In this document: one piece after another, positions 59,310 through 62,113 of the stretch
Position numbering within the stretch: position 1 is the stretch's first letter
Layout of the letters: every line of letters begins with the position of its first letter
Origin: Malacoraja senta
Lineage: Eukaryota
DNA length: 64,000 nucleotides
Direction of reading: 5' to 3'
NCBI GenBank assembly: GCA_038087875.1
Contig: CM075995.1
Coordinates: 4,714,001 to 4,778,000, forward strand
Program-made: the position numbers and the translations under genes
The notes under the pieces: model-generated
What the model saw: the letters and a program-made list of their open reading frames with translations, nothing else
The model's database searches: none
Told to the model about the DNA's origin: nothing

Positions 59310-60840
59310 TGGAAGAAAGGAAGAGGAGGAGCCAGAGGGCTGAGGGAGAGCTGAGAAGGGGAGGAGATAGCAAGGGCTACTGGAAATTGGAGAAGTCAAT
59401 GTTCATGCCGCTCGGGTGATAACTGCCCAAGCGGAATATGTGGTGCTGCTCTGGCCATGGAGGAGGCGCAGGACAGAAAGGTCAGATTCGGAATGGGAGG
59501 GGGAGTTGAAGTGCTGAGCCACAGGGAGATCAGGTTGGTTAATGCGGACCGAGCGGAGGTGTTCGGCGAAACGATCGCCAAACCTACGCTTGGTCTCACC
59601 GATGTAGATCAGCTGACATCTAGAGCAGCGGATTCAATAGGTTGGAGGAGGTGCAGGTGAACCTCTCGTACCTGGAACGACTGCTTGGGTCCTTGAATGG
59701 AGTCGAGGGGGGAGGTAAAGTGACAAGTGTAGCATCTCTTGCGGTTGCAAGGGAAAGTGCCCGGGGAGGGAGTGGTGCGGAAGGGAAGAATTGACCAGGG
59801 AGTTACGGAGGTAGCGGTCTTTGCGGAAATCAGACCGGGGGGGACGGGGGGGAGGGGGGGGAGGAGATGGGAAGATGTGGCGAGTGGTGGGGTCACGTTG
59901 GAGGTGGCGAAAATGACGGAGGACTATTTGTTGAATGTGACGGCTAGTGGGGTGAAACTTTGTGAGGACTAGGGGGACTCTGCCCTTGTTGCGAGTGGGG
60001 GTATGGGGAGAGAGCAGTGTTACGGGGTATTGAAGAGACCCTAGTGAGAGCCTCATCTATAGTAGGGAAGGGGAACCCCTGTTCCCTGAAGAATGAGGAG
60101 ATTTCCAATGCCCTGGTGTGGAACACCTCATCCTGGGAGCAGATGCGGTGTAGACGGAGGAATTGGGAGTAGGGGATGGAGTTCTTACAGGAAGCAGGGT
60201 GGGAAGAAGTATAGTCTAGATAGCCATGGGAGTCAGTGGGTTTATAGTGGATGTCGGTCAGAAGTCTATCACCTGCGATGAAGATAGTGAGGTCAAGAAA
60301 TGGTAGGGAAGTGTTGGAAATGGTCCAGGTGTATTTGAGTACCTGATGGAAGTTAGTGGTGAAGCGGATGAAGTCTGTGAGTTGTATGTGGGTGCAGGAG
60401 GTAGCACCAATGCAATCATCGATGTAGCGGAGGTAGAGGTCGGGGATGGGGCCCTGGTACGTCTCGAACAAGGATTGTTCGACGTACCCTACAAAGAGGC
60501 AGGCGTAGCTGGGGCGCAAGCGCGTGCCCATAGCTGTACCTTGTATTGGCGGAAATGGGAGGAGTCAAACGAAAAGTTATTAAGGGTAAGGACTAGGCGA
60601 AGGAGAGTATCTGTAGACGGGGATTGGTTGATTCTCCAGTCGAGGAAGAACCGGAGGACTTTGAGATCCTCCTGGTGGGGGATGGAGGTGTAGAGTGACT
60701 GGACATCCATGGTGAAGATGAGGGGATGGGGGCCTAGAGATTGGAATGCCCGGAGACGACGGAGAGTGTCTGAGGTGTCTTGAGCATAGGTAGGGAGGGT
60801 TTTAACCAGGGGATAGGATGGAGTCGAGGTATGTGGAAAT
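59310..60840 (-). mobile_element. Penelope-like element, degenerate and 5' truncated
   Basis: ORFs with FTMDVQSLYTSIPH, PSYACLFVG, LRYIDDC, YKPTDSHGYLDYTSSHP and PCNRKRCYTC. Confidence 0.9.
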
Positions 60841-60915
60841 AAGTTCGGTAGGGCACGAACAGGCAGAGACAATAAGTTCGGTAGGGCACGAACAGGCAGC
60901 TCACTTTCAGTGGCT

Positions 60916-61054
60916 TCTTCTTTTTGCGTATGGCGTGCACAGCCTAAAGTTGTAGGACAACTTGTTCTATTTGATCTTATTTGACTGTGCACGCCGGGTT
61001 GATTGCATTATGCAAAACAGGGTGGACCACGTGAAGGTTGCAATCTTCCACCCC
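60916..61054 (-). mobile_element. Short non-autonomous retroposon with a 5' HDV-like ribozyme fold
   Basis: 13-bp TSD ACTTTCAGTGGCT at 60903-60915 and 61055-61067. 3' tail ...CATACGCAAAAAGAAGA. The 5' 54 nt fold into the HDV-type pseudoknot. Confidence 0.8.
61001..61054 (-). ncRNA. Minimal HDV-like self-cleaving ribozyme motif
   Basis: P1 GGGGUGG/CCACCCU with a G1-U wobble, P2 GAUUGCA/UGCAAUC, P3 ACC/GGU, L3 UUCACGU, and essentially no P4. J4/2 reads CAUAA. Confidence 0.7.
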
Positions 61055-61055
61055 A

Positions 61056-62113
61056 CTTTCAGTGGCTGATGTACAAGGACACCCAGGTCTCGTTGCACCT
61101 CCCCTTTTCCTAATCTGACAACATCCAGATAATTGCCTTGTTCTTGCCACCAAAGTGGATAACCTCATCCACATACTGCATCTGCCATGCATCTGTCTGT
61201 CCACTCACGCAACCTGTCAAAGTCACCCTGCAGCCTCATGGCATCCTCATCGCAGCTCACACTGCCACCCAGTTTTGTCATCTGCAAACTTGGAGATGTT
61301 TCATTTAATTCCTTTGTCTAAATCGTATATTGTAAATAACTGGGGTCCCAGCACTGAGCCTTGCGGCGCCCCACTAGTTGCTGCTTGTCATTCTGAAAAG
61401 GACCTGTCAATTCCTACTCTTTGCTTCCTGTCTGCCAACCAGTTCTCATTTCAATACCCTACCACCAATACCATGTGCTCTAATTTTGCACACTAATCTC
61501 TTGTGGGGGACCTTGTCAAAGGCGTTTTGAAAGTCCAGATACACTACATCCACTGGCTCTCCCTTATCCATTCTACTTGTTACATCCTCAAAAAATTCCA
61601 GAAGATTAGTCAAGCATGATTTCCCCCTTCATAAATCCATGCTGACTTTGACTGATCCTGTCACTGCTTTCCAAATGTGCTGCTATTACATCTTTAATAA
61701 TCACATTAAACATCTTCCCCACTACCGATGTCAGGCTAACTGGTCTATAAATCCCGGTTTTCTCTCTCCTTTCTTAAAAAGCAGGGTTACATTATATATC
61801 CTGCAGTCCACAGGAACTGATCCAGAGTCTATAGAACATTGGAAAATATCACCAATGCATCCACGATTTCTACGGCCACCTCCCTGAGTACTCTGGGATG
61901 CACGCCACCAGTTCCTGGAGATTTATTTGCCTTCAGTCCCAACAGTTTACCTAACACCATTTCCTGACTAATGTGAATTTCCTTCAGTTCCTCCCGCTAG
62001 ATCCTCGGTTCCCCTAGTATTTCTTGGAGATTGTGTCTACCTTAGTGAAGACAGAACCAAAGTGCTTGTTTAACTGGTCTGCCATTTCCTTGTTTCCTCA
62101 TTATAAATTCACA
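61056..62113 (-). mobile_element. CR1-type LINE fragment whose 3' tail is at 59238-59308
   Basis: RT region homologous to the 25.3-26.9 kb copy. The whole 59238-62113 block is flanked by TATAAAAA inside an older plus-strand CR1 fragment (59186-59237 and 62114-62495). Confidence 0.85.

What the first reader, a model, noticed from the sequence alone, without database searches (positions are those of the whole stretch)
60903..61067. 139-bp retroposon whose 5' end is a minimal HDV-like ribozyme
Seen: an insertion flanked by a 13-bp direct repeat (ACTTTCAGTGGCT). On the minus strand it begins GGGGTGG-AA-GATTGCA-ACC-TTCACGT-GGT-CCACCCT-GT-TTTG-CATAA-TGCAATC. This gives P1 (7 bp with a G1-U wobble), P2 (7 bp), P3 (3 bp) and L3 UUCACGU, with almost no P4. 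It is followed by a 13-bp stem (GGCGTGCACAGTC/GGCTGTGCACGCC) enclosing AAGTTGT/ACAACTT, then an ...ATACGCAAAAAGAAGA tail. Known: this is the HDV/CPEB3 ribozyme topology; as I recall, the CPEB3 ribozyme L3 is also UUCACGU. HDV-like ribozymes define the 5' ends of R2, RTE and ingi/L1Tc retrotransposons. Inference: the element starts exactly at the predicted cleavage G1, so it looks like a non-autonomous SINE-like family with no tRNA head, processed by self-cleavage and possibly Vingi/ingi- or RTE-mobilised. J4/2 reads CAUAA rather than the canonical CGAA, so this copy may be impaired.
Basis: partly seen in the sequence, partly recalled or inferred. Interest (0 to 1): 0.85.

Follow-up and report, generated by a model that had tools for sequence, protein, structure and literature searches.

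The report
Mini Vingi retroposon with ribozyme head
This is one of roughly 9,000 copies of a 139-base jumping element made of just the two ends of a Vingi-type LINE; it starts with a predicted self-cutting RNA of the hepatitis-delta/CPEB3 kind, RNA from a related species begins exactly at the predicted cut, and this particular copy has lost the base that would do the cutting.

Summary
Observation confirmed. Window 60916-61054 (minus strand) sits between 13-bp target-site duplications and belongs to a family of about 9,000 copies (6,075 exact hits of one 17-mer). I found its partner: a roughly 3-kb single-ORF LINE (APE + RT, no RNase H; Vingi-type) that shares the first 77 and last 40 bases. 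So it is a bipartite non-autonomous LINE, not a tRNA SINE and not RTE-derived. The 54-nt head has the HDV/CPEB3 layout without P4. The catalytic-position C is kept in 27 of 27 sampled intact copies; the window copy has A there, plus a competing hairpin, and is likely dead. Four other Vingi-type LINE families in the same genome, and relatives in metagenomes, start with the same fold in different letters (compensatory changes in P1, P2, P3). One family passes Rfam's mammalian CPEB3 cut-off (64 bits against 35). In RNA reads of a related species, template-switch adapters join directly to G1. Cleavage itself is untested; an internal promoter could give the same 5' ends. Known kind (NARTc/SIDER, R2 SIDEs), new variant: vertebrate, Vingi-type, P4-less, and a lead on where the CPEB3 ribozyme came from.

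The parts
61055..61067 (.). Target-site duplication, copy 5' of the element (13 bp, possibly 14)
   Evidence: TSD of 9 bp or more in 60 of 79 short copies against 1% of 300 mismatched flank pairs
61001..61054 (-). 54-nt HDV/CPEB3-type ribozyme fold without P4 (P1 1-7/30-36, P2 10-16/48-54, P3 17-19/27-29, L3 20-26, J1/4 GU, 5-nt linker, J4/2 44-47); predicted cut 5' of G1 = 61054
   Evidence: RNA 5' ends at G1 in a related species
61008..61014 (-). Mutated cluster in this copy (C41T, A43C, C44A, G45T): catalytic-position C replaced by A at 61011; the changes create a hairpin (40-44 with 48-52) that competes with P2
60978..61054 (-). Part derived from the 5' end of the partner LINE (element 1-77; 88% to L247)
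   Evidence: same head in LINE copies L206, L246, L247, L259, L261
60983..60995 (-). 5' arm of the outer stem (element 60-72), from the LINE 5' UTR
60956..60977 (-). Short A-rich joint (element 78-99) where the LINE interior was deleted; varies between subfamilies
60916..60955 (-). Part derived from the LINE 3' end (element 100-139; 87% to L247): last codons of the ORF with its TAG stop, 3' arm of the outer stem (111-123), CATACG motif and (AAG)n tail
60903..60915 (.). Target-site duplication, copy 3' of the element
61068..61500 (-). Flank: decayed CR1-like LINE fragment into which the element inserted (label recalled)
   Evidence: translation
59947..60899 (-). Flank: decayed Penelope-like reverse-transcriptase fragment (label recalled)
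   Evidence: translation

Best explanation
The element is an internally deleted, non-coding derivative of a Vingi-type LINE that keeps only the LINE's two ends, and its first 54 bases are a predicted P4-less HDV/CPEB3-type ribozyme that likely cuts the RNA free just before G1. Shown: family size, target-site duplications, shared ends with the LINE, the conserved fold, RNA 5' ends at G1. Inferred: a host read-through transcript folds the double pseudoknot and C44 cuts it at G1; the LINE's APE-RT protein, supplied in trans, binds the 3' end and (AAG)n tail and copies the RNA into a nick (target-primed reverse transcription); because the template is only about 140 nt and begins at G1, most copies are full length and carry a ribozyme, so no RNA polymerase III head is needed. 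The window copy inserted and then lost C44, and is likely inactive.
For: Copies: 6,075 exact 17-mer and 1,847 exact 28-mer hits, 0 for reversed controls; 20 of 30 overlap gives about 9,100. TSD of 9 bp or more in 60 of 79 short copies, ending within 1 nt of G1 in 51 of 61. Partner LINE shares positions 2-77 (88%) and 100-138 (87%); L247 runs from head to tail between a 10-bp TSD; APE and RT domains, no RNase H. Families B, C, D, E in the same genome and metagenome loci L280, L284, L335 begin with the same fold in other letters. On 11 aligned heads P1, P3 and positions 21-22/37-38 pair in 88% of 129 cells against 69% shuffled; 7 of 12 pairs change on both sides; slid controls 43-58%. Position 44 is C in 27 of 27 intact copies while 45 is G14/T6/A5/C2; at this CpG the C-to-T form has 241 copies and the G-to-A form 478. 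RNA reads of organism C, 4 runs, 2 studies: letters before G1 are the template-switch oligo in X21 (1,625 reads, agreement 0.79) and X22 (1,355, 0.76), partly in X23 and X24. Sister family B scores 64.2 and 57.1 bits, and L280 55.6 bits, on Rfam CPEB3 (cut-off 35).
Against: No cleavage assay. Family A itself is below every Rfam cut-off (15.7 and 17.5 bits; no ribozyme family listed for 6 whole loci). The head is no more stable than shuffles in a pseudoknot-free fold. Template switching marks any RNA 5' end, so a promoter starting at G1 (or at G2 with a cap-derived G) gives the same reads; the median loose length of 31 against a 30-nt oligo is unexplained; the reads are from a related species and there is no DNA control. 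LINE copies have ragged 5' ends: of 20 loci, 14 hold part of the head and only 5 start at positions 1-3. Of 20 metagenome loci inspected upstream, most show no clear fold (truncated, mutated, or different). The 241 vs 478 asymmetry could come from drift of one subfamily or from T-to-A changes in CUAA copies. The heads were chosen by descriptor, Rfam model or eye, and are related by descent. No intact partner ORF was seen among 45 scored candidates. No named Vingi protein was in the tree.
Confidence: 0.8

Rival explanations
1. Same bipartite Vingi-type element, but the G1 ends come from an internal promoter in the first 77 nt (like Pr77 of L1Tc); the P4-less fold is slow or vestigial as a catalyst.
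For: L1Tc's first 77 nt act as both promoter and ribozyme (PMC3383444, abstract start). Template switching cannot tell a cap from a cut. In this 5-nt linker a two-pair UUCG hairpin could tie up G37 and C44 (sequence inspection).
Against: The first J4/2 base stays C in every family whose P2 parsed correctly while neighbours vary; the start falls exactly at the G1 that the fold predicts in families A, B, C and D; minimal HDV-like ribozymes without P4 are active in vitro (PMC10879173); the junction consensus shows no extra G.
Confidence: 0.12
2. The fold is kept mainly as a structural 5' module (exonuclease shield, protein-binding site or translation start for the LINE), with cleavage secondary.
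For: For R2, the fold gives cap-like protection and has been proposed as an IRES (PMC13708176; PMC6765202). In the partner LINE an in-frame AUG overlaps J4/2-P2.
Against: The short element has no ORF, yet keeps C44; structural roles do not exclude cleavage and do not explain starts at G1.
Confidence: 0.06
3. A SINE mobilised by the genome's RTE family, or a tRNA-derived SINE, with a chance HDV-like head.
For: The RTE family also ends in (AAG)n.
Against: RTE 3' ends share no sequence with the element; ARAGORN finds no tRNA; both ends match the Vingi-type LINE; 0 descriptor hits in 6.9 Mb of shuffled DNA.
Confidence: 0.02

Closest known systems
NARTc / RIME / SIDER of trypanosomatids (non-autonomous L1Tc/ingi derivatives with an HDV-like ribozyme; PMC4035085, PMC3383444: search listings only)
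   Same: Short element made of a LINE's ends, 5' end formed by an HDV-like ribozyme, sister clade to Vingi
   Different: Vertebrate host, Vingi-type partner without RNase H, 54-nt head without P4, 139 nt in all, about 9,000 copies
Bipartite non-autonomous LINEs from Vingi, RTE, Ingi and R2 (Kojima 2018, PMC5786205: passages, section 23, one supplement passage; R2 SIDEs PMC3414825: listing)
   Same: Internal-deletion origin, keeps 5' and 3' ends, no RNA polymerase III head
   Different: [quoted passage not shown]
Mammalian CPEB3 ribozyme (Rfam RF00622)
   Same: Same L3 UUCACGU, J1/4 GU with a single C22-G37 pair, G1-U wobble, CGAA J4/2 (Rfam consensus); sister family B and L280 pass its cut-off
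   Different: Family A has different P1, P2 and P3 letters, no P4, does not reach the cut-off, and is mobile and multi-copy rather than a single intronic locus
Minimal HDV-like / theta ribozymes (PMC10879173: introduction and passages)
   Same: No P4; catalytic C first in J4/2
   Different: Those are from metagenomes and gut phages, linked to tRNAs; this one heads a eukaryotic retroposon

Membership tests
HDV-like ribozyme | P1 of 7 bp starting at G1 (G1-U/C), P3 of 3 bp, 7-8 nt L3 | tested here: met
   covariation across families
HDV-like ribozyme | P2 pseudoknot closing the fold | tested here: met
   7 of 7 pairs in family A; different paired letters in B, D, E, H, L280 (partner strand chosen by best pairing, so partly circular)
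HDV-like ribozyme | P1.1 (L3 with J1/4) | tested here: met
   One pair, C22-G37, as in the Rfam CPEB3 consensus; U22-A37 in family D; a second pair C21-G38 in L280 and L284
HDV-like ribozyme | P4 helix | tested here: not met
   5-nt linker only; minimal members lack P4 (PMC10879173), so this places it among minimal variants
HDV-like ribozyme | Catalytic C first in J4/2 - family | tested here: met
   27 of 27 intact copies in a position-ordered sample of 30; 17 of 17 long/other heads
HDV-like ribozyme | Catalytic C first in J4/2 - window copy | tested here: not met
   A at position 44
HDV-like ribozyme | Mg2+-dependent self-cleavage 5' of G1 | not testable with these tools
   RNA 5' ends at G1 are consistent but do not show chemistry
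Rfam CPEB3_ribozyme RF00622 / HDV-F-prausnitzii RF02682 | Score over gathering cut-off - family A | tested here: not met
   15.7 and 17.5 bits on RF02682 (cut-off 44); no RF00622 match listed
Rfam CPEB3_ribozyme RF00622 | Score over gathering cut-off - sister family B and L280 | tested here: met
   64.2, 57.1 and 55.6 bits, cut-off 35; 39 of 51 genome matches over cut-off
Bipartite non-autonomous LINE | Only the 5' and 3' ends of an autonomous LINE, no ORF, TSD, microsatellite tail | tested here: met
Vingi clade (partner LINE) | Single ORF with APE and RT, no RNase H (PMC13708176) | tested here: met
   RNase H found in the Nimb-like control but not in P0001, P0004, P0064
Vingi clade (partner LINE) | Groups with named Vingi proteins in an RT tree | tested here: inconclusive
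   One clade of 27 of 38 rows (98/99), apart from PHD/2A-bearing Ingi-like and Nimb-like rows, but no named Vingi sequence was available. Family B's head resembles the Vingi-2_Gav 5' end in Kojima's supplement by eye
SINE (RNA polymerase III head from tRNA, 5S or 7SL) | Small-RNA-derived head | tested here: not met
   ARAGORN 0 genes; no Rfam tRNA/5S/7SL match; head is LINE-derived
Named Repbase/Dfam family | Existing entry for this element | not testable with these tools
   No repeat library on hand

The most novel reading that the evidence does not exclude
HDV-like ribozymes of the CPEB3 type are the standard 5' end of Vingi LINEs across animals; they shrank to a 54-nt P4-less form at least twice in this genome and drive thousands of promoter-less mini-elements; and the single mammalian CPEB3 ribozyme, reported as not found outside mammals, is a domesticated Vingi 5' end whose living outgroups are these elements.
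Probability: 0.55. Interest if true: 0.82.

Novelty: new variant of a known kind. Interest (0 to 1): 0.68.

Why it matters
It extends ribozyme-defined 5' ends to Vingi-type LINEs and to a high-copy vertebrate mini-element, and offers a reason why this clade so readily spawns two-ended derivatives: the head travels with each copy and needs no promoter of its own. It supplies thousands of natural variants of a very small HDV-like fold. It also makes an open question testable: Bendixsen et al. 2021 (PMC8233481) could not go deeper than mammals for lack of CPEB3 outgroups, and sister elements here pass the CPEB3 model's cut-off. Vingi UTRs are in use as gene-writing templates (PMC13708176), where a self-cleaving 5' end would matter for design.

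Tried and rejected
PF14529 search returned Nimb-like, CR1-like and Crack-like LINEs, none sharing the element's ends. PF20049 search returned an RTE family with an (AAG)n tail but a different 3' end; all 19 copies compared were 5'-truncated. A descriptor pattern demanding a different P2 gave 8 hits, none an evident HDV fold; it missed families B-E. Rfam scan of 6 whole short-element loci listed no ribozyme family. No RNA holder on record among indexed runs: not evidence either way. Read-laying table 6 (places where many molecules begin or end) was empty; the signal is in the loose ends. Poly(A) after position 131 (242 and 222 reads) is not used as evidence, since oligo-dT can misprime on the A-rich tail. 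The automatic parse misplaced P2 or P1 for L410, L335, L326 and P1 for L284; its pooled J4/2 and P2 means are not relied on. End-to-end 5'-3' pairing test: p 0.04, 0.01, 0.17, 0.04 for families A-D, but cross-family duplexes were often as strong: inconclusive. Ruminski 2011, Kojima 2011 and Webb 2009 were not held. Earlier-findings look-ups by words and by sequence were empty.

Full report
OBSERVATION. The sequence is as described: a 13-bp direct repeat at 60903-60915 and 61055-61067 (14 bp if the preceding c is counted, so the boundary is G1 or G2) around 139 bases that read 5' to 3' on the minus strand. Numbering from G1 = 61054: P1 1-7/30-36 with G1-U36, P2 10-16/48-54, P3 17-19/27-29, L3 UUCACGU, J1/4 GU, a 5-nt linker in place of P4, J4/2 44-47. 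The outer 13-bp stem and inner 7-bp hairpin are in the MFE fold, z -4.1. Rfam gives only a sub-threshold HDV-F-prausnitzii match (15.7 bits, cut-off 44). It is the only copy in the window.

FAMILY. The window lies in a 1.94-Gb genome; its CR1-like and Penelope-like repeats suggest a cartilaginous fish (my recollection, not a call). A DNA search gave 372 candidates, the 40 scored being 92-100% identical. Exact patterns gave 1,847 (28-mer) and 6,075 hits (17-mer), reversed controls 0; 20 of 30 copies with the 28-mer also have the 17-mer, a rough total of 9,100. All 30 copies picked by the 28-mer are short elements with (AAG)n tails. TSDs of 9 bp or more were found in 60 of 79 short copies against 1% of 300 mismatched pairs, ending within 1 nt of G1 in 51 of 61 (these 79 are a biased mix). 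In a position-ordered sample of 30, 19 had such TSDs; 3 copies with a deletion through P3/P1 were set aside; the other 27 differ from column majorities by 6.3% on average and 23 have G at position 1. Near-identical sequence is in runs of 7 coded organisms, 11 studies.

THIS COPY. Position 44 is C in 27 of 27 intact copies, while 45 varies (G14, T6, A5, C2). The window copy has C41T, A43C, C44A and G45T. It fails my descriptor when C is required and passes when it is not, and the changes create a hairpin that takes up P2's 3' strand. HDV-like ribozymes put the catalytic C first in J4/2, and a C-to-U change inactivates them (PMC10879173, passages). The copy is likely dead. Genome-wide, the C44-G45 CpG appears as TG in 241 copies and as CA in 478; neutral decay predicts about equal numbers, so forms that keep C44 seem to spread more, though drift of one subfamily could do the same.

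PARTNER. Pfam-led searches found Nimb-like, CR1-like, Crack-like and RTE-like LINEs that do not share the ends. A pattern for the 3' end that excluded the short element's middle gave 884 hits, among them LINE tails ending in an ORF with a Cys/His motif. Of 24 such tails, L206 reached a 5' end with the same head. A search with the LINE 5' region gave 27 matches; of 20 loci fetched, 14 hold part of the head and 5 start at positions 1-3; L247 spans head to tail between a 10-bp TSD. The element matches L247 at 2-77 (88%) and 100-138 (87%), so it is an internal deletion product, and the two arms of its outer stem come from opposite ends of the LINE. The LINE has one ORF with APE and RT. An intact relative, P0001 (1,019 aa, 72% identical), has no RNase H, unlike the Nimb-like control. 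That is the Vingi architecture as given in PMC13708176 (passages). In an RT tree of 38 rows (L143 dropped as too short), the partner and five other families of this genome fall in one clade of 27 rows (98/99) apart from PHD/2A-bearing and Nimb-like rows; no named Vingi protein was available and the clade labels are mine. All partner-family copies among 45 scored candidates were broken; that search is a floor.

THE FOLD ACROSS FAMILIES. Four other Vingi-type families in this genome (B, C, D, E) begin with the same layout in different letters and with a long P4 region, and in B, C and D the TSD ends at G1. Among 80 metagenome loci, a strict descriptor found L280 and L335, with 0 hits in matched shuffles; L284 and the L289/L309/L326/L329/L336 group were recognised by eye, and most of the 20 upstream regions inspected showed nothing clear. 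On 11 aligned heads, P1, P3 and the 21-22/37-38 positions pair in 88.4% of 129 cells (shuffled 69.4 +/- 2.6), 7 of 12 pairs change on both sides, and slid controls give 43-58%; P2 could not be aligned by MAFFT and was parsed separately. Position 22-37 is C-G in 11 and U-A in 1 of 12 heads; 21-38 is U-U in 9, C-G in 2, U-C in 1. These heads were chosen by descriptor, model or eye and are related, so the shuffle count is not a probability.

RNA. Four raw RNA runs of organism C (two studies; it holds 70% of the sampled words) were laid on copy L048, where G1 is 1475. The letters before 1475 are the full template-switch oligo in the single-cell runs (1,625 reads, agreement 0.79; 1,355 reads, 0.76), and its 3' part dominates the consensus in the two bulk runs (556 and 692 reads, 0.42 and 0.44). 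Loose ends before 1474 are unrelated flanks (agreement 0.35-0.52). The oligo's three G's lie outside G1-G4, which argues against strand invasion at the G run. Single-cell reads are 3-4 fold sense-biased at the head. So discrete RNAs start at the predicted cut. This does not separate cleavage from initiation; the median loose length of 31 is unexplained; 891 loose-end rows were not shown.

MECHANISM. Shown: bipartite origin, copy number, TSDs, conserved fold, RNA starts at G1. Inferred: read-through transcription, cleavage at G1 by C44, binding of the 3' end by the LINE protein in trans, target-primed reverse transcription. Confidence 0.8. Rivals: internal promoter with a vestigial fold (0.12), structural module (0.06), RTE or tRNA SINE (0.02).

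WHAT IS KNOWN. [quoted passage not shown] Minimal P4-less forms were known from metagenomes and phages (PMC10879173, introduction). Searches for Vingi + ribozyme (6 papers), HDV-like ribozyme + SINE + retrotransposon (12), CPEB3 ribozyme + retrotransposon (21, 19 listed), CPEB3 + origin terms (5) and shark/skate terms showed no listing that links Vingi to a ribozyme or describes this element; I saw most as listings only. PMC3391268, PMC5753468, PMC3277949, PMC10274809 and PMC4494074 were seen as passages and added nothing on this point. Ruminski 2011, Kojima 2011 and Webb 2009 were not held, their supplements were unseen, and patents and repeat libraries were not searchable; any of these may already describe it.

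CPEB3 LEAD. Family B heads score 64.2 and 57.1 bits and L280 55.6 bits on RF00622 (cut-off 35). The genome has 51 matches, 39 over cut-off. Of the 25 inspected, 10 are followed directly by a Vingi-type ORF on the same strand and 6 more abut an inverted ORF fragment. [quoted passage not shown] Descent from a Vingi 5' end is the simplest reading, but I did not examine the mammalian locus.

VERDICT. Real; a new variant of a known kind; interest 0.68.

Noticed in passing
L426:1500-1560 (-), L428:1511-1570 (+), L399:4791-4854 (-): A second P4-less head with CPEB3-like P1/P3, a 5-nt linker and CCAA; L426 is a roughly 170-nt element with a TSD whose 3' end resembles LINE family F (L390, L397), suggesting an independent mini-element.
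   Followed up: partly
L386-L389, L393, L406-L416, L422, L425: Family B: Vingi-type LINE with a CPEB3-like head over the Rfam cut-off; two copies have about 1,000-aa open frames (G000 C8:934716, C4:35486717), so it may be recently active.
   Followed up: partly
L388, L389: Family B copies begin with 3-5 tandem repeats of the ribozyme's first 30 or so bases before the complete head.
   Followed up: no
L205, L212, L250-L253, L255-L257, L259, L262, L263; also L413, L417, L421, L423, L427, L429: Many LINE copies are 5'-inverted with the head at the junction and most of the interior missing (about 10 of 20 loci picked by the 5' region; 2 of 24 picked by the 3' end), as if a second primer often starts near the 5' end.
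   Followed up: partly
window 60983-60995 with 60932-60944; L261, L387: Bases just after the ribozyme are complementary to bases just before the tail (about 10 bp in family A, 9 bp in family B), although they lie 3 kb apart in the LINE; the shuffle test was inconclusive.
   Followed up: partly
window 61003-61015: The four clustered substitutions of this copy turn the region into a near-perfect inverted repeat, as a fold-back templated mutation would (inference).
   Followed up: no
L246:476-1363, L247:467-781: In the partner LINE the reading frame is open through the ribozyme and an in-frame AUG overlaps J4/2-P2; a second AUG lies about 60 nt downstream.
   Followed up: no
L097:2347-2395: The 3' 49 bases of the short element are joined directly to the tail of a Crack-like LINE over a few shared bases, like a template-switch chimera.
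   Followed up: no
L348, L351, L352, L103: A damaged copy (deletion or insertion through P3/P1, tail replaced by a C-rich tract) has been amplified inside another repeat.
   Followed up: no
L175, L176, L179, L186, L193; L172-L196: Several short subfamilies with different joints and CUAA in J4/2 suggest more than one deletion event or stepwise shortening of the LINE.
   Followed up: partly
window 60833-60900: A tandem duplication of about 34 bp at the end of the Penelope-like fragment, next to the element's TSD.
   Followed up: no
L293, L299, L301: Ingi-like relatives with Cys-rich N-termini, one with a 2A-like motif, group apart from the Vingi-type clade.
   Followed up: partly
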